A stretch of DNA of 64,000 nucleotides from Mobula hypostoma (lineage: Eukaryota), in assembly GCF_963921235.1 (NCBI RefSeq), contig NC_086108.1, positions 40,736,001 through 40,800,000 on the forward strand, in the 5' to 3' direction. A program made the translations under genes and the position numbers. The first letter of the stretch is position 1; every line of letters begins with the position of its first letter. Positions 8,988 to 58,200 of this stretch are shown here, in pieces. Under the pieces are notes generated by a model that was not told the origin of the DNA, made no database searches, and worked only from the letters and a program-made list of their open reading frames with translations.

Positions 8988-11900
8988 ACTTTATACTTTA
9001 TTGTCACCAAACAATTGATACTAGAATGTACAATCATCTCAGCGATATTTGATTCTGCGCTTTCCGCTCACTGGATTACAAACAGTAAATATTAAAAATA
9101 GTAAAAATTAGTAAATATTAAAAATTTAAATTATAAATCATAAATAGAAAATAGAAAAATGGAAAGTAGGGTAGTGCAAAAAAACCGAGAGGCACGTCTA
9201 GATATTTGGAGGGTACGGCTCAGATCCGGGTCAGGATCCGTTTAGCAATCTTATCACAGTTGGAAAGATACTGTTCCCGAATCTGGCCGTACGAGTCTTC
9301 AAGCTCCTGAGCCTTCTCCTGGAGTGAAGAGGGACGAGAAGTGTGTTGTCTGGGTGGGTTGTGTCCTTGATTATCCTGGCAGCACTGCTCCGACAGCATG
9401 CAGTGTAAAGTCCAAGAACAGAAGATTGGTTTGTGTGATGTGCTGCGCCGTGATCACGATCTTCTGCAGTTTCGTTCGGTCTTAGACAGGACAACTTCCA
9501 TACCAGGTTGTGATGCACCCTAGAAGAATGCTTTCTACGGCGCTTCTATAGAAGTTAGTGAGGGTTTTAGGGGACAGGCCAAATTTCTTTAGTTTTCTCA
9601 GGAAGTAAAGGCACTGGTGGGCCTTCTTGGCAGTGAACTCTGCTTGGTTGGACCAAGTCAGGTCATTTGTGATATTGACCCCGAGGAACTTAAAGCTTTT
9701 GACCTGTTCCACTTGCGCACCACCGATGTAAATTAGGTCGTGCGGTCCGCTACTCCTTCTGAAGTCAACAACTAATTCCTTCGTCTTGCTGACGTTGAGG
9801 GATAGGTTATTGTCTTCGCACCATGCCACCAGGTTCTTAATTTCCTCTCTGTACTCAAACTCATCATTACCCGAGATACGATCTACAATTGTGTCATCAG
9901 CAAACTTATATATTGAGTTTGATGGAAACTTGGCTACACAATCATGGGTGTACAGTGAGTACAGCAAGGGGCTGAGTACACAGCCTTGTGGGGCAGCGGT
10001 GCTCAGAGTGATTGTAGAGGAGAGCTTGTGCCCTATTTTTACAGCCTGCATCCTGTCTGTGAGGAAGTTGAAGATCCAACTGCAGATCTGAGTGCTGAGG
10101 CCCAGGTTCCGGAGCTTAGGAATCAGTTTATTTGGAATGATGGTATTAAAGGCAGAGCTGTAGTCAATGAAAAGGAGCCTTACATATGCATCTTTATTCT
10201 CCAGGTGTTCTAAGGAGGAATGTAGGGCCAGAGAGATGGCATCTGCCGTTGACCTGTTGCTCCAGTAGGCGAGTTGCAAAGTGTCAAGGTTGACCGGTAG
10301 GCTGTGGTTGATGTGTGCCATAACCAATCTCTCGAAGCACTTCACAGAAATTGATCTCAGAGCCACAGGTCGATAGTCATTCAGGCATGCCACTTTGCTC
10401 TTCTTAGGCACTGGGATTATTGTTGCCTTTTTTACACGAGGGGATCTTAGACTGAAGCAAGGAGCAGTTGAAGATGTCAGCAAACACTCCAGCTTGCTCG
10501 CTTGTACAGGCCCGGGGAACCCATCCTGGGATGCCATCTGGGCCCGTCGCCTTCCTTGGATTTATCTTCAGGAAGGCCCTTCTAATGTCCTCCTTGGTGA
10601 CGATGAATCTCAATGCCACCAGGTCTGGTTCATCCGGAGGGAGTGGGATGCTCCTCTTTTGTTCGAATCTTGCGTAGAATATGTTTAGTTCATCAGGAAG
10701 AGAAGCGCCACAGTTATTGATATTCCCAGCCTTTTCTTTGCGCCCACTGATCTCATTTAGACCCTGCCATAGTCTACTAGCATCCCTCTGGTTAGCCTGG
10801 GCTTCCAACTTGGCTCGATATTGCCTCTTGGCGCCCTTAATGGCTTTCCGGAGTTCACGCCTGGATTCCGTGTAGCGACTGGTATCCCCGGACCTAAAAG
10901 CCGCAGCTCTAGCCTTTAAAAGGGACTTGACCTCATAATTCATCCAAGGTTTCCTGTTAGGGAATACCCGGATCATCTTGTGAGACACACAGTCCTCCGT
11001 GCATTTTGAAATAAAGTCCGTGACAGCTGAGGCATACTCATCGAGGTTAGCTGCCGAGTCCTTGAATACTAACCAGTCCACCGATTCAAAGCAGTCACGG
11101 AGTAACTCATCTGTTTCCTCCGTCCAACACGACACTACTTTTGACACCGTGACCTCCCGCTTCAGTTTCTGTTTGTAAGCCGGGAGGAGGAGTATGGCCT
11201 GATGGTCCGATTTTCCAAAGTGAGGTCATGGGACGGAACGGTAGGTATCCTTGACTACTGTGTAGCAGTGGTCAAGTATATTCGGGCCTCTAGTGGGGCA
11301 GGAGACATTTTGGTATAACTTTGGCAGCGCCTTTCTGAGGTTGGCCTGGTTAAAGTCCCCGGCTGTAATGAGCAAAGCTTCTGGATACCTGGTCTCAAGT
11401 TCACTGATATTGGCATACAGTATGGTCAGAGCACACTCCATGTCCACCTGGGGGGGTATGTAGACTGCTGTCAGTATGACCGAGGTGAATTCCCATGGCA
11501 GATAGTAGGGACAACACTTCACTGAGAGGTGTTCCAGGTCTGGGCTGCAGGAGCTTGTCAGTGCCACTGCGTCCGAGCACCATGCAGTGTTGATCAGTTG
11601 GCAGACACCAACTCCCCTCATCTTGCCCGAAGACGCTGTGTGGTCCATCCGATGGATCGAAAATCCCTCCGGTCGGATGGCACAGTCGGGGATGGCAGGG
11701 GAGAGCCAGGTCTCAGTGAAACAGAATACACAGCAATTCTGCATCTCCCTGCAGTAGGTTAGTCTCCCTTTAAGATCATCCACGTTGTTCTCTATGGCTT
11801 GCACATTAGCTAGTAGGATGGTGGGCATAGGGACCCTGAAGCCCCTCAGCTTCAATCTGACCAGCAGCCCAGCTCTTTTCACACGCTTCCTCGGTAAATA

Positions 11901-12622
11901 GTGCATCTTTCCAGGTTTCCATTGATGCGGTGTGTTGTCAGCTCTTTGAGGTTGGTGGACGCATCCTGCGGGGATTGATCGGCAGGTCGCGTCGTCGTGC
12001 GCTCCGGGTCGGGCCGAGTGACAGGGGAGGCTCTGCTGCCACTTCCAGCTGCCGGGGGCCCGGGCTGTTGTTTCGGTCGGGCCCCAAAGCCGACACTTCA
12101 TCCTGGATGGCCGGGCTCCTGGCTGAAACAAGTCCGTAAACCGAGTCACGTCTGCGGAGGCCTCCGCTCCAGCCGAGCCTTGGACTCGATTTCCGAGGTC
12201 AGCGGCAGAGGCCTCACTTCTGGCAGCTGTGGATGGCCACCAATGGGGCTTTACGGTGGTCGCTCCAGTGAAGCGTCTGGGGTACCTTGACGTTTCCGCT
12301 GTCACTTCTGTGTGGTCGTCTGCTTCGAAGAGGTGCTGGTCGGAATGGGCCGTGTCTCCAAGCGCTCCAGCACGGTAGCAGACCGCAGGTCTCCGGGAAC
12401 ATGGTGGGCCTCGCTGGTTGGGCCCTGGTGCGGTCCGGAGTTTAAGAAGCAATTCTGGCGCGGTGGTCTCCAGCTGGGTCAGTAGCTTCGCCAGGGTGTT
12501 GTTGATCTTGCTAAATGTAGCAGATTGGAGGTCTAGAAGGGTTTCTCAGGTATAGGATAGTGGAGAGGGCAGTTTGCTCGGCAGAGCATGCGCAAAGTCT
12601 CCAGTTACCGGCGCTATCTTAG
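8988..12622 (-). mobile_element. Near full-length Rex1/Babar-clade LINE (~3.6 kb) with a single APE-endonuclease + RT ORF carrying a few stops and frameshifts
   Basis: APE motifs are present (LLANVQ, FTETWL, AVYIPP, AGDFN, LDHCY, SDH), as are RT motifs ([43 protein letters not shown]). The 5' end reads aagatagcgccg and the 3' end aataaagtataaagt. Confidence 0.92.
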
Positions 12623-15094: not shown

Positions 15095-17059
15095 TGAAAC
15101 CGGAGGAAATAGTGGAGGAACTTAATGTAAACAACAGGAATTCTGCAGATGCTGGAAATTCAAGCAACACACATCAAAGTTGCTGGTGAACGCAGCAGGC
15201 CAAGCAGCATCTATAGGAAGAGGCGCAGTCGACGTTTCAGGCCGAGACCCTTCGTCAGACGAAGGGTCTCGGCCTGAAACGTTGACTGCGCCTCTTCCTA
15301 TAGATGCTGCTTGGCCTGCTGCGTTCACCAGCAACTTTGATGTGTGTTGGTTGAGGAACTTAATGAATACTTTGCTTCAGTATTCACTATGGAAAAGGAT
15401 CTTGGCGATTGTAAGGATGACTTGCAGTGTTCTGAAAAGCTTGAGAATGTAGATATTATGAAAGAGGATTTGCTGGAGCTTTTGGAAAGCATCAAGTTGG
15501 ATAAGTCACCGGGACCAGATGGGATGTACCCCAGGCTACTGTGGGAAGCGAGGGAGGAGATTGCGGAGCCTCTGGCAATGATATTTCCATCATCAATGAG
15601 GACGGGAGAGGTTCCGGAGGATTGGAGGGTTGCGGATGTTGTTCCCTTATTCAAGAAAGGGAGTAAGGATAGCCCAGGAAATTATAGGCCAATGAGTCTT
15701 ACTTCAATGCTTGGTAAGTTGATGGAGAAGATCCTGAGAGGCAGGATTTATGAACATTTGGAGAGGCATGATGTGATTAGGAATGGTCAGCATGGCTGTG
15801 TCAAAGGCCGGTTGTGCCTTACGAGCCTGATTGAATTTCCTGAGGATGTGACTAAACGCATTGATGAAGGTAGAGTTGTAGATGTAGTGTATATGGATTT
15901 CAGCAAGGCATTTGATAAGGTACCCCATGCAAGGCTTATTGAGAAAGTAAGGAGGCATGGGGTCCAAGGGGACATTGCTTTGTGGATCCAGAATTGGCTT
16001 GCCCACAGAAGGTAAAGAGTGGTTGTAGACGGGTCATATTCTGCATGGAGGCTGGTGACAAGTAGCGTGCCTCAGGGATCTGTTCTGGGACCCCTACTCT
16101 TTGTGATTTTTATTAATAACCTGGATGAGGAAGTGGAGGGATGGGTTAGTAAATTTGCTAATGACACAAAGGTTGGAGGTGTTGTGGAAAGTGTGGAGGA
16201 CTGTCAGAGGTTACAGCGGGACATTGATAGAATGTAAAACTGGGCTGAGAAGTGGCAAATGGAGTTCAACCCAGATTAAGTGTGAGGTGGTTCATTTTGG
16301 TAGGTCAAATATGAAGGCAGAATATAGTATTAATGGTAAGACTCTTGGCAGTGTGGAGGATCAGAGAGATCTTGGGGTCAGTCCTCAGGACACTCAAAGC
16401 TACAGTGCAGGTTGACTCTGTGGTTAAGAAGGCATACAGTGCATTGGCCTTCATCATTCGTGGGATTGAGTTTAAGAGCTGAGAGGTAATGTTGCAGCTA
16501 TATATGACCTTGGTCAGACCCCACTTGGAGTACTGTGCTCAATTCTGGTCGCCTCACTATAGGAAGGATGTGCAAACCATAGAAAGGGTGCAGAGGAGAT
16601 TTATAAGGATGTTACCTGGATCGGGGAGCATGCCTTATGAGAATTGGTTGAGTGAACTTGGCTTTTTCTCCTTGGAGCGACGGAGGATGAGAGGTGACCT
16701 GACAGAGGTGTACAAGATAATGAGAGCCATTGACCATGTGGATAGTTAGAGGCTTTTCCCCAGGGCTGAAATGGCTAGCATGAGAGGGTATAGTTTTAAG
16801 GTGCTTGGAAGTAGGTACAGAGGAGATGTCGGGGTAAGATTTTTACACAGAGAGTGGTGAGACTGTGGAATGGGCTGCCAGCGGCGGTGGTGGAGGCGGA
16901 AACGATAGGGTCTTTTAAGAGACTCTTGGATGGCTACATGGAGCTTAGAAAAATAGAGGGTTATGGATAAAGCCTAGGTATTTCTAAGGTAGGGACATTT
17001 TTGGTACAGCTTTGTGGGCTGAAGGGCCTGTATTGTGCTGTATATTTTCTATGTTTCTA
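15095..17059 (+). mobile_element. 5'-truncated CR1 LINE (ORF2 RT), interrupted at 15128-15352
   Basis: KSPGPDGMYPR, NYRPMSLTS, VYMDFSKAFDKVPH, VPQGSVLGPLLF, SKFAND and LVRPHLEYCAQFWSP, with a tail of ttctatgtttcta. Confidence 0.93.
15128..15352. mobile_element. Young Penelope-derived palindromic insertion with 13-bp TSD
   Basis: Arms 15165-15256 and 15258-15349 are reverse complements with 1 mismatch. The insert is flanked by GAGGAACTTAATG at 15115-15127 and 15353-15365. Confidence 0.9.
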
Positions 17060-49932: not shown

Positions 49933-51552
49933 ATAGGATCAGAATTAGGCTATTCGGCCCACTGAGTCTGCTCCACCATTCTATCATGGCTGATTTATTA
50001 TTCCCCTCATCCCCATTCTCCCTCCTTCTCCTCGTAACCTTTGATGACCTGACTAATCAAGAACCTATCAATCTCTGCTTTAAATATATCTAATGACCTG
50101 GCTTCCATAGCCATCTGCAGCAATGAATTCCACAGTTTCACCACTCCCTTGCGAAAGAAATTCTGCCCACTTCTGTTCTAGATGGGCATCCCTCTATTCT
50201 GAGGCTGTGCCTCTGGCCCTAGACTCACCCATGACAGGAAATGTCCTCTTCTCATCCACTCTATCTCGGCCTTTCAATGTTTGATAGGTTTCAATGAGAT
50301 CGCACTTCCCCCACCCCATTCTTCTAAGTTCCAGCCAGTGTCGGCCCAGTGTCATCAAACGCTCCTCATAAGTATGTTAACACTTTCATTCCTGGATTCA
50401 TTCTCGTGAACATCCTCTGGATGCTTTCCAGTGCCAGCACATCTTTTCTTAGATAATGGACCCAATACTGCTCACAATACTCCAAGTGTGGTCTGATCAA
50501 TGTCTTATGAAGCCTCAGTATTACATCCTTGGTCGTATATTCTGATTCTCTAAAATGAATGTTAACGTTGTATTTGTCTTCCTTATCGGCAACTTAATCC
50601 GGAAGTTAACCTTTAGGGAATCCTGCACAAGGACTCCCAAATCACTTTGCACCTCTGATTTTTTGAATTTTCTCCTTGTTTAAGAAAATAGTCTGTCATT
50701 ATTCCTTCTACAAAAGTGCATGACCATACAGTTCCCTATACTATATTCCATCTGTCACTTCTTTGACCATTCTTCTAATCTCTCTAAATCCTTGCTTCCT
50801 CAACAATACCTGTCCCTGAACCTATCTTTGTAATGTCTACAAACTTGGCAACAAAGCCAATAATTCCATCATTCAAATCTTGAACACATAACAAGAAAGA
50901 AGTGGTCCCACACTGATCCCTACAGAACACCACTAGTCAATGGCGGTCAACCACAAAAGCCCCCTTTATTCACACACTTTGCCCCTTGCCATTCAGCCAA
51001 TCTTCTATCTATGCTGGCATCTCTGCTGTAACGCCATGGGCTCTTATCTTATTAAGCAGCCTCATATGCGGCACCTTGTCAAAGACCTTCTGAAAATCCA
51101 AGTAAACAATATCCACTCACTCTCCTTTGTTTATCCTGCCTGTTATTTCCTCAAAGATTTCCAATAAACTTATCAGACAAGATTTCCCCGCAAGGAGACT
51201 ATGCTGACCTTGGCTTATGTTAGCATGTGCCTCTAAGTACCCTGAATCCTCATCCTTAATGATGGACTCCACTCCAACATCTTCCAAACCACTGAACTCA
51301 GGCTAACTGACCTAGTATTTCCTTTTTTTACCTCCATTCTTTCTTAAGGAGTGGAGTGACATTTGCAATTTTCCAGAAGTCAAAGCCATTCCAGAATCTA
51401 GTGATTCCTGAAAGATCAGTACTAATGCCTCCACAATCTCTTCAGCCCCCTCTTTCAGAACGCTGGGGTGTCATATAGTTGGTCCAGGTGATTATTCTAC
51501 TTTCAGACCTTTCAACTTTCTGAGCATCTTCTCCTTAGTACCAGCAACTACA
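49933..51552 (-). mobile_element. CR1 LINE (RT and 3' end), split by the Gypsy insertion; 5' continuation at 58355-58530
   Basis: CR1 terminus at 49933 and DFQKVFDKVPH encoded on the minus strand near 51065-51100. The two flanks rejoin as ggcagaagtaag-tgta-gttgctgg. Confidence 0.88.
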
Positions 51553-51835
51553 TGAACCCTCTGCCCCCCACCCACTCAGTTTCCTTGAGCTGTGTACATC
51601 TAGGGAATACACACTCTGGTCCCACCAAATCCATTACTCGTGCCTCCTGACAATTCAGACCCCTTGTCACTTGGCTGAGCTCAGCTTCATGGCCAGTTAC
51701 TTTAGAGTCCAGCCTCCCATCATTTTCTAACCACAAACCTGCCTGTCCACTGCTAGTTCCTCCTATTTCACCCGCCTCAGCTTGAGAAGGGTTGGGAATC
51801 TCTTTGTCAATTACTGGGGAATTTGGGAAGGGCAG

Positions 51836-52033
51836 TGTTGTGTATGTGGCCTGGTTATGCAACAATGCTATTAATAAAAATGCTGGAGACGGGATCTAAG
51901 GTTCATGGTTCTTTACTGGCAGAAACTGAACTCGGCACACACAAACAGATCAATACACATCTAATAGTACATGCAACGATGTGTTACTAAAACATAAAGT
52001 GGTTCCTTGTTATAATGAAGGCTATACGGTACA
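51836..52033 (-). repeat. 3' LTR of inner element (198 bp)
   Basis: TGTTGTGTATGTGGCCTGG...GGCTATACGGTACA, a direct repeat of 55073-55295. Confidence 0.95.
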
Positions 52034-52046
52034 CTCCTCCCCTTTT
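52034..52046 (-). other. Polypurine tract
   Basis: AAAAGGGGAGGAG on the minus strand, immediately before the 3' LTR. Confidence 0.9.
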
Positions 52047-52560
52047 ACTTTAATAGTGTATCAACTTTTTTCCCTGGGGCATTATGCTAAACAAATATGT
52101 TTACCCTTAACATACAAACACCTACCATTTGTTTACTTAGCAACTTAATTATATCAAATTATAACAAAGCCTTTTTTAAACTTTTGGTCCAAAACCCATT
52201 TATAACTCAAGTCTCTGGGGGTGGGGGGTCTTCTCTAGATTATCCGGCACTGAAGCAAATAGGTCTTCACTCTATTGTCTGGAATAAATTGAACAATCCA
52301 CAAATTGGCAGGTTCCAGCCACAAAGAGTAGTCACCTCCATCTTGCAAAGAGAAATCCGTGAAAAGGTGAATGTTATTCTTAAAAATATGTACAATCATC
52401 AAAACTGAGATGGCATTGGAAAGTGTCTTCAAATAGTGTGTTCTTCAGTCTGTCAATAAACTTGTTTGTTTTAATACAGATTTCCATATGAAAGTCATGA
52501 ACAATTGACCTCTGAGCATAGGGAGTTAAGAAGATGTGTGCCTCCATCTTGCAAAGAGTT

Positions 52561-53496
52561 CTAGGCAGCAGATCGCCTCTGTATAATGAAGACTCCTCTG
52601 TGCAGCTGTCCTAGATATATACGTATCTTTGTGCTATCACTTGTCTTCTTTACCCATATCTCATTTGTTCCAACTGAGCTAATTACACAGCCAATCTTTG
52701 TATTCTCCTTAGATTCCAAATAGATAGCCTAACCTTTATGATACCATCTCTTATCATGGTATAACTTTCCATCTTCTGTTTGTGCTTCATACCTTTGTGC
52801 TGGTGATTCAGCAGGAGTGCTGGGAAGATGCTCAGGAGAAGACAGAGATGCTGGTCTTTTCAGAAATTTAAGTTTATTGAGAGTTTGCAGATCTTCTGTT
52901 ATCTGTTCATCCATTAACAAGTAACTTAACTGCGCAGGTGCAGGTTTTCGTCTTTTGTTTGCAATTGGAACAGGGTTATTAGGTCTCCTCCTTACTTTCC
53001 TAGTCATTATTGGCTTTACCTCCATAGAATCTCCTGTGAGTTCCATTGTTAGCCTCTCATTCTTAATCATCTTTTTCTTCTCTTCTAACTCAATCTTTTT
53101 ATCTTCAAGTTCTTTCACTGCTGCTTTCGTCTCTTTAATATAATTTCTTTCCACTTGTTCTGTCTCCAGTTGCAGAAAAAGCTCTGCATTTCGTATTCTT
53201 TCCTTGTATTGTTGATCTAGTTGCTTCATCGTTTTCTGATACTCCTGTGAAGTGCCTTCCTGTAACTGCTATAGCTGTCTTTTGAGAGATGTCAATTTCT
53301 CCAGGTACATCTGCTCTTTTACCTCCAGGTAGTCTTCATCATCCTGCTTATTGGCAATATCTGTCTCACTTGCATCCCCTGTATCTTCATCCGAGTTGCG
53401 GCCGTGGATACTGTGTTCGTCATCATCGTCGATGCTGTCTAGCTCCTCCTCGTCATTGTAATAATCGACAATTTGTGAGAGGAGAGCTGCAGAAAT
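52561..53496 (-). pseudogene. SUDS3: Processed (intronless) pseudogene of Sin3-HDAC corepressor complex component SDS3
   Basis: One continuous frame reads [21 protein letters not shown]...[21 protein letters not shown]...[23 protein letters not shown]...[17 protein letters not shown]...[10 protein letters not shown]...[21 protein letters not shown]...[30 protein letters not shown], matching vertebrate SUDS3 end to end. Lesions: two in-frame TAG stops at Gln positions (53269, 52729), a start position reading ATT, and an ~8-aa deletion (KENLIAEL). Confidence 0.95.
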
Positions 53497-53499
53497 CTT

Positions 53500-54687
53500 C
53501 CCCGTCGAGCTGCCCTCCTTTGTTGACACATCTAGTGCCTTGATAGTGTGCCACACTAACTGGATTTTCCTGAGGCATTCACATCCCAGCAATGGTAGTC
53601 CTCCATTTTTCAGTACATAGAGGTTCAGCCGCTGTGTTTTGTCTCCGAAGGTCACTGTCACTTTTATTTTGCCTTTGGGACGCACTGTCTGTCCTGTGTA
53701 AGTCTTTAGCAAGTTTCAGAGGTATGTGAGAAAACAGTCGTTTGTAGTTGTGCACAGAGATCACTGTTAAAGCTGAGGTTGTGTCCAAATCCATTTTCAG
53801 TCTCAAGCTAGCCACTTGTGGAGTGATCGATATTACTCTTCGATCATCCATCTCTTTCATGCTGTGAAGTTGCCGACAAGACAATTCACTTTCATTGGAG
53901 TCGTTTTCATCAGAACTGCCTTCTTTCATTTTGTGTACCTTCTTGTGTTTTCCTTTCTGGGGTTTTTTGTTTCTCTGTATGTTGCCCTTTTTCTGCTGTT
54001 GACTAGCTTTGCATACTCTGCCAATGTGGCCTTGTTTGCCACAGTTTCTGCATTCTTTGTCTTTAAACCAACATTCATCAGGGTCATGTGACCTGTTCCC
54101 ACAATGGTAACATTTCCTTCCTTCATTCCTGTTCAGTGACATTTTATTTGTGGCATATTCCAGATTTTTTTGTTGTATCTCGGAAGCACCCGGTGCCGCT
54201 GTTTCCGTTGATATTGCAATGTTTAGCGCTTTCTCCAATGTAAGGTCTCTTTTACACAGAAGCTTCTTCTGTGTGGTTTCACAGTGCATGCCACACACTA
54301 ACCTGTCCCTCAATGCGTCTGATAGACCAGCTCCAAATTGACAATGTTCTGATAATTTGTGCAATTCAGCACAATATTCAGAAATGCTTTCATTTTTGCT
54401 CTGATTCCAATTGTGGAATTTAAATCTTTCAGCAATGACCAGTGGTTTGGGCTTTAAATGCTGTTGGAGAGTGTCTACTATTTGCTTGAATGTTTAGTCA
54501 GTTGGCTTTTCAGGGGTTAACGAGCTCCGTAGAAGGTCGTATGTTTTTGCTCCCATAATATGAGTAAAGCGCCGGCTTTCCTTTCATCATTAACACTGTT
54601 AGCCTCACAATATAACACTCTTTCAATGTAAGTTGCCCAGTCTTCAATGCCACTATCAAATGCTGTAATGTTTCCAATCATCGCCAT
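53500..54687 (-). pseudogene. Gypsy gag and aspartic protease, frameshifted
   Basis: Starts MAMIGNITAFDSGIEDWATYIER, then LRDRLVCG, two CCHC knuckles (CYHCGNRSHDPDEC, CRNCGKQGHIGRVC), protease LKMDLDTTSALTVIS and LKTYTG...LPLLG. Confidence 0.9.
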
Positions 54688-55058: not shown

Positions 55059-55069
55059 CCTTGTCGCCA
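55059..55069 (-). other. Primer-binding site (tRNA-Ser(GCT)-type)
   Basis: TGGCGACAAGG, 3 nt downstream of the 5' LTR and one mismatch from TGGCGACGAGG. Confidence 0.8.
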
Positions 55070-55072
55070 ATT

Positions 55073-55295
55073 TGTTGTGTATGTGGCCTGGTTACACAAC
55101 AATCCTATTACTAAAAACTCTGGAGACGGGAGCTAAGGTTCGTGGTTCTATGCCGGCAGAAACCGATCTCGGCACACACGTACAGATCAATACGTGTCTA
55201 ATAACGCATGCTCGATATGCACTTAATAGCGCTTGCAACGACATGTTACTGAAACATAAAGTAGTCCCTTATTACAATGTAGGCTATACGGTACA
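55073..55295 (-). repeat. 5' LTR of inner element (223 bp)
   Basis: Direct repeat of 51836-52033 with a 25-bp indel and TGT...ACA termini. Confidence 0.95.
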
Positions 55296-58200
55296 GGCAG
55301 CATATACCACACCCCCATTTCCTCATTTCTGAGTCATATCACATTCAGGGGTGGGGTCTGGTCTAGTCTTTTCCGTTGCTGGTCCTTCAGTTCACCCATG
55401 TTGCCACAGAGTCCTCTTACTAGGTGTAGGGTCTGGGTCAGGCTCTGGGTCAACACGTACCTCTTGTCCCAGAGATAGAAGGTGGTTCCGATGGAGAATC
55501 TTGACAGGCCCATTCCCGTCCTTTGGTTTCACCTGGAAAACTGTTACCTTTGGTATCTGACTCTCCACTACATACAGTGTAGCCACCCAGCGGTCAGCCA
55601 ACTTGTGTCTCTAAATTCTTTATGAGGACTCAGTCTCCAGGCAAAAGTTTGGAAATCCTAACCTTTTGATCATGCCTCCTCTTATTTCCTTGATTCTGCT
55701 TGATAACCGAGACTCCAGCTGGTTCATAAGCCTTTTGCAGCTCCCTTCTCATATCAGACACATACGTCAGATAAGTCTTCTGTTGTAGATCTTCCCCACC
55801 AGTCCCAAAACAGAGGTCAATGAGCAGACGTGCTTTGCGCTCAAGCATCAGATAATACGGCAAGTACCCAGAGGCATCATTCTGTGTACAGTTGTAGCAG
55901 TGGACCAGATGACCAATATGTTGACTCCACTTGTTCTTACTCATCTCCAAGGTATAGGTATGTCTAGGAATGTCCGATTGAACCTCTGGGGCTGGGGATA
56001 AGGTGTAGTCCATGACTTCTCGACCTCATGCATGCTCAGTAACTCATGTATGAACCTACTCTCAAAATCCCGTCCCTGATTGCTCTGTATCTGACTGGGG
56101 AGGCCATAATGAATGAAATACTTCTCCCATAACTCTTCGGCCACGGTGGACGCTCTCTGATCCTTTTTAGGGAAAGCTAACGCATATCTGGTGTAGTGAT
56201 CCGTAATAACCAAGAGATTTGCCATGTTGCTGGAATCAGGCTCTATGAAGATGAAATCCATACACACCTGATCAAATGGCCCCGAACTCTCAAATGGGAT
56301 AATGGAGTGGCCCTAGTAAGTGGCATCTTCCTCTGTATACATTGAATGCACAACTTTCAGTACTCTTTGACCTCTGCCTTTATTCGGAGCCAGTAGAACC
56401 GATCTCTGATCAAGCCATTGGTCTTGTCAACCCACAAATGACTGGAATCATCATGAAGTGACTTCAACACAATCCTCTGATACTTCTCAAGCAGAACCAG
56501 CTGGGAATGCCAAGACCTATCTGGAGGCAACACGGCCCAGTGTAGAATCTGGCTCCTCAACGCGAATCTGGGCCATTCCCTCAGTAGTAGAGACACTGCA
56601 GAGTGTTTCATCTTGTCCACCTGGGCTACGTCCCCTTTCGCAACCACTGACCAAATGGTACCTATGCACAGGTCATCTTGCTGAACAGCGACCACTTCCC
56701 CGGGACTCAATTCCAGCAACTGCTTTGTCTTCAGGGCAGTCACGTTGAAGTAAGCTTGTGAAATGGCTCCATCAGAAGCTCCCAAATGATTTACCACTCG
56801 ATCCTGCCCTTGCCTTTCCTCTTCCTTCCCCGTTATGTAAAACTGGCACAGGGGCAGAAACGTTTTCCCACTCTCTGTCCCTGTCCAGCCTTTTATGCAA
56901 ACATCAGGACAAAGCATCGGCAGCAATATTCTGACTCCTTGGCTGGCATTTCAGGCTGAAATCATAGGCAGACAACTCCACCAGCCACCAATGGCCTGTG
57001 GCATCCAATTTTGCTGAGGCCAGGATATAAGTAATGGGTTGTTCTCCGTCCTCACCTTGAACTGGGCACCATACAGATAGCCACTTAGCTTATCCAACAC
57101 AGCCCATTTCAATGCCAGCAACCTCCAAGTTGTGTGTGGGGTAACTTTGCTCAGAGGGTGACATACTCTGACTGACTCACTCTTGAGCCCCGATCCTGAT
57201 ACAGAACATCCCCTAAGCCCTCTCTGCTGGTATCTATATGCAGTACATTTGGCAACTGGGGGTGTGCAAAAGCCAGCACAGGCACTTTCGTCAGCAGCTC
57301 CTTCAACGATTGAAAGGCCTCTTCACATTTCACTTCCCATCTTGCTCCAAAAGGCTCCAAGGGGCTAAAATAATCTTTACCATCCTCTCCTTTCATCCTC
57401 CTTTCTTTCTTCCCCAAGGGAGGGTAACTGCACAGAAGCAGACTTAAAGAGTGACTCACTTTTGCGTAGCCCTTCATGAACCTCCGATAGTACTCACAGA
57501 ATCTAAGGAACGAGTACAGGGCGTTCATAATATAGGGCCTTGGCCATGTAGTCACTGCCTCTATCTTAGACAGATCCATAGCCACTCCATCCTATGAGAC
57601 TATGTACCCAATATAGTTGACAGATGTCTTGCAGAACTGGCTCTTGTTCAGGGAAAGGGTTAATCCTCCAGCTTTCAGGCGGACCAGCACCTTCGGTAGC
57701 CTCGCTTCATGTTCCTCCAAGGTGGACCTGAACGCTATTAGATCACCCAGGTACACCAACACCTGAAGCAAGTTCATATCCCCCAGTTTTCTCCATGACA
57801 TGCTGGCAAGTCCCTGGGGCATCCTTTCAAACTGGAAGAATCCCAATGGGTATATAAATGCCGTCTTCTCTTTATCAGCCTCACACATGGGTACCTGATA
57901 ATATCCACTCCTCATGTCCAGCACACTGCATATTATTAAAGGAATTATATTTATGCATGCAAACTTAACTGAAGGATTAGTAAATAAAAGAAAGGCAAAA
58001 AACAAATAGGGCCTATTATAATTAAACAGTCAAATGTCCACAAGTTGGAGCTCAGTTCTTCCAAAAGCTATATTCACCAATCCTCAGTAGACCTCTGCAC
58101 CTTGCTCCATCGAATCATGGTCCCCCACCAGGTTGAATCCTATGACCAGTTCTCTCCAGCGTCTTCTCCCTTCATCTCCCACTGAACAAAAGACCCCAGC

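What the first reader, a model, noticed from the sequence alone, without database searches (positions are those of the whole stretch)
53269..53800. SUDS3 is fused in frame to the retroelement protease: an ancestral Gag-PR-SUDS3 polyprotein
Seen: ORF 53712-53269 runs without a break from the protease C-terminus (LKTYTGQ...LPLLG...[16 protein letters not shown]) into the SUDS3 N-terminus ([22 protein letters not shown]). The junction falls almost exactly at the SUDS3 start, where RT would normally begin, and the expected initiator position reads ATT. Inference: before decay the element could express whole SUDS3 as a protease-released domain. That could be chance (about 1 in 3 for frame alone) or selection, for example as a decoy or modulator of Sin3-HDAC silencing, or as a source of anti-SUDS3 small RNAs. 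The functional ideas are speculative.
Basis: partly seen in the sequence, partly recalled or inferred. Interest (0 to 1): 0.72.

Follow-up and report, generated by a model that had tools for sequence, protein, structure and literature searches.

The report
Jumping gene fused to captured SUDS3
A dead jumping gene in a ray genome carries a copy of the host silencing gene SUDS3 joined in reading frame to its protease; the join is real and old, but it looks like a lucky copying accident whose cargo has since decayed freely, not a working fusion protein.

Summary
The in-frame join is real. One frame runs from the protease C-half of a Ty3/Gypsy LTR element into SUDS3 residues 1-75. A stingray gene model and a contig from a related animal show the same join in frame. 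The switch lies in the protease-RT linker, 19 nt before the SUDS3 start, at a 7-nt microhomology (one contig). This copy cannot make the polyprotein: gag and protease are frame-broken and SUDS3 has two stops.

Function is not supported. Across the family the cargo lacks 8 residues of its dimerisation coil. Changes private to this copy are 19 non-synonymous to 6 synonymous, the neutral ratio. Six copies hit deeply conserved sites at least as often as variable ones. ATT at 53496 is not fixed (7 of 9 mapped database copies keep Met), and ATT at 53472 is the parent's own Ile9.

Best reading: a non-autonomous, LTR-mediated retrocopy family whose founder was in frame by chance, with SUDS3 as a passenger. 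Selection on the short founder branch is untested. This scan already noted the family many times elsewhere in this genome.

The parts
55296..55300 (-). Target-site duplication, upstream copy (5 bp)
   Evidence: Same 5 letters precede the 5' LTR and follow the 3' LTR
55073..55295 (-). 5' LTR (223 bp, TG...CA)
   Evidence: 29 differences in 198 aligned sites from the 3' LTR, K2P 0.167
55059..55069 (-). Primer-binding-site-like sequence right after the 5' LTR
   Evidence: Position shown; the match to a tRNA-Ser 3' end is recalled, not tested
53850..54687 (-). Decayed gag (K02A2.6-like Ty3/Gypsy) with CCHC knuckles; breaks near 54620, 54560 and 54497
   Evidence: (zf-CCHC E 0.004)
53714..53849 (-). 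Protease N-half, in the gag frame; its catalytic-motif stretch departs from that of relatives
53516..53712 (-). Protease C-half plus start of the protease-RT linker, in the SUDS3 frame; frame break at its upstream edge
   Evidence: (RVP E 0.042)
53509..53515 (-). 5' switch point: 7-nt stretch shared by the element without cargo and the SUDS3 mRNA (microhomology)
   Evidence: table 7: parent-type contigs (X15, X16) stop matching above 53515; one X15 contig matches the protease side down to 53509 and then continues differently (n=1)
53497..53515 (-). Captured SUDS3 5' UTR (19 nt)
   Evidence: records 13 and 18; the Chiloscyllium model P0007 shows a similar in-frame leader before Met
52561..53496 (-). 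Intronless SUDS3 retrocopy, 311 codons; ATT at the initiator; stops at 53271 and 52731; 24-nt family-wide deletion at 53086; 35 residue differences from the parent
52480..52560 (-). Captured SUDS3 3' UTR (extends at least this far; 3' switch point not mapped)
   Evidence: record 17 (parent-type contig) runs to the end of the laid stretch
52034..52047 (-). Polypurine tract
51836..52033 (-). 3' LTR (198 bp)
51831..51835 (-). Target-site duplication, downstream copy
55301..58029 (-). A different, decayed Gypsy element (RT, RNase H, integrase) into whose 3' part this element inserted
   Evidence: RVT_1 2.6e-15, RT_RNaseH_2 2e-11, rve 8.7e-12; only 29% identical to the donor clade's RT

Best explanation
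This is one dead copy of a non-autonomous Ty3/Gypsy family in myliobatiform rays, founded by one LTR-mediated capture. During reverse transcription RT jumped, at a 7-nt microhomology in the protease-RT linker, onto a co-packaged SUDS3 mRNA 19 nt upstream of its ATG. It copied the whole CDS and some 3' UTR and switched back, replacing RT-RNase H-integrase (anatomy shown; the switching itself is inferred). The microhomology happened to put SUDS3 in the Gag-PR frame. Because donor elements have one ORF, the founder RNA could probably be read as a Gag-PR-SUDS3(delta 8) polyprotein of about 710 codons (inferred). The family was then copied in trans by intact relatives to roughly a hundred or more sites. 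SUDS3 rode along as a passenger and changed without sign of protein-level constraint.
For: LTRs, 5-bp TSD, PBS-like site, PPT and intronless cargo. Junction in the linker with microhomology, matching the median 6-bp microsimilarity of Tan et al. 2016 (PMC5131818, passages). Single origin: 24-nt deletion in 0 of 48 X21 reads carrying the parent form, and in 9 of 9 retrocopy rows long enough to cover it. Copy number: X21 depth about 65 over SUDS3, which gives about 100-170 copies if the genome is 3-5 Gb (assumed size). Neutral decay: 19 N: 6 S among the 25 CDS rows shown, against 70-76% expected (binomial p 0.66-1.0). Pairwise 23 N: 17 S over 729 nt, ratio 0.41-0.54. Substitutions in 6 copies: 152 of 1283 at invariant sites, 17 of 269 at variable sites. 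Open-frame retrocopy models are 9-11% diverged, like this stop-bearing copy (11%), while ray orthologues differ by 0 of 303 and 1 of 319. Founder changes: delta 8 inside the solved coiled coil (4zqa), plus two replacements at sites invariant in 6 of 6 orthologue rows.
Against: No frame-breaking lesion shared by the family was seen; both the junction and the one shared indel keep the frame. Naively that is 1 in 9, but it is weaker, because short direct repeats in this CDS are mostly in frame (12 of 22 6-mers). Synonymous changes on the founder branch could not be counted, so selection there is not excluded. Only 40 of 218 variant rows were shown, so the private set is a sample. The microhomology rests on one contig. 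The pooled site test is pseudoreplicated by shared and CpG changes. A SUDS3-carrying family spreading this far could reflect an advantage.
Confidence: 0.72

Rival explanations
1. Selection kept the frame open for the RNA's sake, not the protein's. A long ORF ending 528 nt before the 3' LTR would shorten the 3' untranslated part of the element RNA and could protect it from nonsense-mediated decay or keep Gag made in cis, while the SUDS3 amino acids were free to drift.
For: Junction and shared deletion both keep the frame; no shared stop seen. Amino-acid changes accumulate freely. Distances.
Against: The founder branch looks short, and having no stop among 3 replacements has probability about 0.83. 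Mini-Ty elements move in trans without any functional ORF (PMC4974528, passages). In-frame bias of repeat-mediated deletions.
Confidence: 0.13
2. The master elements made Gag-PR-SUDS3(delta 8), and the SUDS3 part, released or not, acted as a dominant-negative or decoy of Sin3L/HDAC silencing that helped the family spread.
For: Complete CDS captured in frame behind a complete protease. The Sin3-binding segment (2n2h, query 195-219) and capped Tudor domain (7sxi) are kept, while the dimerisation coil (4zqa) is shortened, which is a plausible poison-subunit anatomy. Sds3 is implicated in heterochromatin (PMC8800102, passages). High copy number.
Against: No purifying signal in any test run. No intact Gag-PR-SUDS3 protein among the 18 longer hits or the 82 long gag hits, none of which carries the Sds3 Pfam; both searches are weak for absence. 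The cleavage site position is unknown for this clade. A diffusible anti-silencer would benefit all elements equally (inference).
Confidence: 0.07
3. The cargo works as RNA: copies produce piRNAs or antisense RNAs that down-regulate host SUDS3, as captured piwi/aub/nxf2 fragments do in Drosophila telomeric elements. The reading frame is then irrelevant.
For: Precedent in PMC13534243 (passages). Copies are about 93% identical to parent-type contigs (for example 25 differences in 358 nt), above the roughly 80% at which that paper saw targeting lost.
Against: No small-RNA data here. The cargo is full-length and sense-oriented rather than a short fragment. It does not explain the in-frame join.
Confidence: 0.08

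Closest known systems
LTR-mediated retrocopies / pseudo-LTR retrotransposons of animals (Tan et al. 2016, PMC5131818; 12 passages read)
   Same: Internal ORFs replaced by a spliced mRNA, both LTRs kept, microhomology at the switch, further rounds of retroposition
   Different: Complete CDS rather than the usual partial copy; fused in frame to Gag-PR; old (LTR K2P 0.167) and amplified to about a hundred or more copies across ray families
Maize Bs1 (known to me only through passages of PMC5131818)
   Same: LTR element with transduced host coding sequence forming a hybrid ORF
   Different: Bs1 is cited there as a functional hybrid gene from several host genes; here the cargo shows neutral decay and no protein evidence
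Retroviral gag-onc fusions of acutely transforming viruses (recalled, no call)
   Same: Defective element with pol replaced by a host gene in frame with gag, spread by a helper
   Different: No env and no infection; v-onc fusions are selected for activity, and no such signal was found here
Drosophila telomeric TEs with captured nxf2/piwi/aub fragments (PMC13534243; 12 passages read)
   Same: A TE carrying a piece of a host silencing gene
   Different: Those are 140-235 bp fragments in non-LTR elements acting through piRNAs; this is a full CDS in an LTR element, with small RNAs untested
K02A2.6-like Ty3/Gypsy elements of fishes (P0175, P0176)
   Same: Gag with CCHC knuckles and protease, 56-60% identity, single Gag-Pol ORF
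   Different: RT, RNase H and integrase are missing here

Membership tests
LTR-mediated retrocopy (Tan 2016) | Retrocopy flanked by both LTRs of one element, replacing part of its ORFs | tested here: met
   LTRs, gag-PR present, no donor-clade RT/RNase H/integrase match between the LTRs
LTR-mediated retrocopy (Tan 2016) | Intronless copy of a spliced mRNA | tested here: met
   One HSP covers SUDS3 1-327 in 933 nt; parent-type RNA contigs are colinear
LTR-mediated retrocopy (Tan 2016) | Microsimilarity at the 5' switch point | tested here: met
   7 nt at 53515-53509; the element side rests on one contig
LTR-mediated retrocopy (Tan 2016) | Microsimilarity at the 3' switch point | not tested
   The 3' switch lies below 52480, outside the stretch laid
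LTR-mediated retrocopy (Tan 2016) | Integration as an LTR element (TSD) and further retroposition cycles | tested here: met
   5-bp TSD; many copies share the 24-nt deletion
Functional chimeric retrogene / selected Gag fusion (Bs1- or gag-onc-like) | Cargo in frame with the element ORF | tested here: met
   Window, P0012 and X1 record 4; P0016 is ambiguous
Functional chimeric retrogene / selected Gag fusion (Bs1- or gag-onc-like) | Intact ORF in this copy | tested here: not met
   At least three gag breaks, one protease frame break and two SUDS3 stops
Functional chimeric retrogene / selected Gag fusion (Bs1- or gag-onc-like) | Purifying selection on the cargo after insertion | tested here: not met
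   19 N: 6 S; conserved sites not spared
Functional chimeric retrogene / selected Gag fusion (Bs1- or gag-onc-like) | Purifying selection on the founder/master branch | tested here: inconclusive
   Founder has delta 8 plus two replacements; its synonymous changes could not be counted; the pairwise totals leave no visible synonymous excess
Functional chimeric retrogene / selected Gag fusion (Bs1- or gag-onc-like) | Fusion transcript and protein expressed and processed by the protease | not testable with these tools
   Only contig-level runs guessed to be RNA were available; cleavage site unknown

The most novel reading that the evidence does not exclude
A vertebrate Gypsy lineage captured a core subunit of the Sin3L/HDAC silencing complex in frame behind its protease. 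Its master copies expressed a coil-shortened SUDS3 as a dominant-negative anti-silencing factor that fuelled the family's spread through ray genomes, which would make it a retrotransposon analogue of a viral gag-onc capture.
Probability: 0.07. Interest if true: 0.8.

Novelty: new member of a known kind. Interest (0 to 1): 0.3.

Why it matters
As it stands, it is a clear and unusually amplified vertebrate example of LTR-mediated gene capture. It also explains a published oddity: SUDS3 is listed among the top retrocopy parents in cartilaginous fishes (bioRxiv 10.64898/2026.06.26.734816, passages read). That preprint reads such lists as formation bias plus selective filtering, and attributes non-mammalian retroduplication to CR1/Tx1 LINEs. 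Here the copies descend from one capture multiplied by an LTR element, so counting them as independent retrocopies, or annotating them as 'SDS3-like' genes, misleads. If the anti-silencing reading held, it would be a protein-level counter-defence stolen from the host by a vertebrate transposon. The many copies make that directly testable with branch-wise dN/dS.

Tried and rejected
- No whole genome is held for this window, so copies could not be counted or compared in the window's own genome.
- Metagenome scan with SUDS3: 6 loci, none used. L001 (read) is a more distant SUDS3 without an element flank in the 58 nt upstream; the other 5 were not read.
- Expression: no RNA holder listed. In the two runs guessed to be RNA (X15, X16), the only contig over the diagnostic 24-nt site is parent-type (1 of 1 in each), and none of the 8 pieces shown per run bridges the junction. 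Contigs drop rare forms, so this is no evidence either way.
- ATG/ATT share among reads: that position was not among the 40 of 218 rows shown.
- 'ATT fixed in all copies' rejected. Position 1 reads Met in 6 of 9 other retrocopy rows (Ile in P0008, Leu in P0018, unmapped in P0016), and Met in P0012. Annotation favours ATG, so this share is biased. The off-frame text of P0016 implies ATT there too, so ATT marks a subset.
- R322Q is in 5 of 5 covering proteins but in a minority of X21/X1 reads and sits at a CpG, so it was not counted as a founder change.
- L1/CR1-type retroposition into a pre-existing element rejected: pol is replaced rather than interrupted, and there is no TSD or poly(A) around the cargo.
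- Literature: 'SUDS3 + retrotransposon + Gypsy' gave 0 papers. 'SUDS3/retrocopies/cartilaginous/pseudogene' gave 9, one relevant. A search for Ty3 protease cleavage sites did not locate the PR/RT site for this clade.
- The bioRxiv preprint's supplements were not seen and may list these SUDS3 copies.

Full report
WHAT IS THERE. On the minus strand, 55295-51836 is a complete LTR element. It has a 223-bp 5' LTR and a 198-bp 3' LTR (29 differences in 198 sites, K2P 0.167; 22 of 178 outside CpG), a 5-bp target-site duplication, a PBS-like site and a polypurine tract. It sits inside the 3' part of another decayed Gypsy element. Between the LTRs lie gag, protease, an intronless SUDS3 copy and part of its 3' UTR. 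tblastn with autonomous relatives finds no RT, RNase H or integrase of this clade between the LTRs. The relatives are K02A2.6-like Ty3/Gypsy elements, 56-60% identical, with Gag-PR-RT-RH-IN in one ORF. The closest SUDS3 proteins are from Mobula, Hypanus, Hemitrygon and Pristis, so the host is most likely a myliobatiform ray (inference).

THE OBSERVATION. The frame 53715-53269 is open from the protease C-half into SUDS3 1-75. In relatives the protease ends, a variable linker of about 12-16 residues follows, and then the first RT helix begins; the join falls in that linker. In two runs guessed to be RNA, contigs of the parent mRNA match the window up to 53515 and then go their own way, so 19 nt of 5' UTR were taken. 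One contig matches the protease side down to 53509 and continues with sequence that reads like the relatives' linker. The overlap gives a 7-nt microhomology (element side n=1), in line with the median of 6 bp reported by Tan et al. (PMC5131818, 12 passages read). The frame was therefore fixed by where this short match lay, a 1-in-3 event.

IS THE JOIN ANCESTRAL? Probably. The Hemitrygon akajei model P0012 has the same linker-to-SUDS3 join in frame with Met retained, and its gag start is open across the breaks seen in the window. X1 contig record 4 spans 53429-53596 without gaps. P0016 (Mobula birostris) passes the same stretch in another frame; this may be a spliced model or private indels, and I cannot tell which. 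The stop at 52731 is private (63 of 65 X21 reads differ), and other copies differ from the window at the protease frame break (tables 4, 7, 8). The status of the stop at 53271 among reads was not shown, but 9 retrocopy models read through it. So a founder with a continuous frame of about 710 codons (2127 nt from gag ATG to SUDS3 stop in this copy) is likely. This copy cannot make it.

THE ATT CLAIMS. The ATT at 53472 is the parent's Ile9. At position 1, 6 of 9 other retrocopy rows have Met, one Ile, one Leu and one is unmapped, and P0012 has Met. ATT therefore marks a subset of copies. An internal ATG in a polyprotein is not needed, so its loss says nothing about function (inference).

FAMILY. 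The parent form of a 24-nt stretch at 53086 is present in both RNA-type contigs but in 0 of 48 X21 reads and in no X1 contig. The 8-residue gap is in all 9 retrocopy rows that reach it. X21 depth over SUDS3 is about 65 from 1,934 Mb read, or about 100-170 copies for an assumed 3-5 Gb genome (rough, Hi-C reads, not the window's own sample). Earlier notes of this scan describe the same family at many places in this genome (unchecked AI notes).

SELECTION. (1) Among the 25 displayed variant rows inside the CDS (of 218 rows, 40 shown), the window's differences from the majority are 19 non-synonymous and 6 synonymous; neutral expectation is 70-76%. (2) Against two parent-type contigs lying within the CDS (729 nt) there are 23 N and 17 S, a ratio of 0.41-0.54. 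That is the value expected when the copy is neutral and the parent adds only synonymous changes; here S was inferred as total minus minimum N. (3) The window and five long retrocopy models substitute sites invariant across five outgroups at 152 of 1283, and variable sites at 17 of 269. This is opposite to purifying selection, though pseudoreplicated. (4) Open-frame models are as diverged (9-11%) as this stop-bearing copy. The chance of no stop in 32 replacements is 0.12-0.16, so a few open copies among a hundred are expected. (5) The founder carried the 8-residue deletion inside the solved dimerisation coil (4zqa; role from PMC8800102, passages) and two replacements at sites invariant in 6 of 6 orthologue rows. 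Against my reading: no shared frame-breaking lesion was found, the founder's synonymous changes could not be counted, and the family was very successful. The in-frame deletion is weak evidence, because 12 of 22 short direct repeats in this CDS are in frame.

MECHANISM, SHOWN AND INFERRED. Shown: the anatomy, the junction position, the shared frame, a single origin, multiple copies, and neutral decay after insertion. Inferred: template switching in the particle, mobilisation in trans (possible without internal ORFs in mini-Ty elements, PMC4974528, passages), and translation of the founder polyprotein. Not known: whether the protease site lies before the join, and whether any fusion RNA, protein or small RNA exists.

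COMPARISON AND NOVELTY. It is a member of the LTR-mediated retrocopy class: 4 features met, the 3' microhomology not tested. It works like a defective gag-onc virus in layout only and fails the tests for a functional chimera in this copy. I found no paper on this family. A 2026 preprint lists SUDS3 among the top retrocopy parents in cartilaginous fishes without, in the passages I read, naming an LTR carrier (supplements not seen). The VGP preprint (passages) does not mention SUDS3.

VERDICT. A real, inherited in-frame fusion in a known kind of element, best read as a chance product with a passenger cargo (0.72). Interest 0.3. The anti-silencing polyprotein reading is left at about 0.07.

Noticed in passing
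window 55301-58029 and 51548-51830, - strand: The element is nested in an older, unrelated Gypsy element; the reading frame on the far side of the 3' LTR looks like the continuation of that element's post-integrase tail.
   Followed up: partly
P0012 (XP_072884955.1, Hemitrygon akajei): The model annotated 'Y-box-binding protein 1-like' is a chimera of Gypsy gag start, the protease-SUDS3 join, SUDS3 N-terminus and a cold-shock (YBX1-like) domain. It may be a second capture into the same family or a spliced mis-model.
   Followed up: no
P0003, P0004, P0005, P0008, P0013, P0014, P0016, P0017, P0018: The NCBI 'SDS3-like' genes of Mobula and Hypanus appear to be copies of this element. A shared S43R change (P0004, P0005, P0014, P0017, P0018, also P0012) splits them into subfamilies across genera. 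P0004 is only 4 of 159 residues from the parent, so it may be a much younger or constrained copy.
   Followed up: partly
window 53496-53467: The SUDS3 N-terminus happens to resemble the first RT helix it replaced (it aligns to it), partly through a Pro-to-Gln change not seen in the other copies listed; probably coincidence.
   Followed up: no
window 9482-12545 (-) and 15341-16015 (+): Long ORFs of decayed non-LTR retrotransposons (endonuclease/RT-like; family names from recall).
   Followed up: no
L001:292-294: A SUDS3 mRNA-like contig in a metagenome collection has an in-frame stop at about the same place in the gene as the window's first stop; unrelated to the element as far as seen.
   Followed up: no
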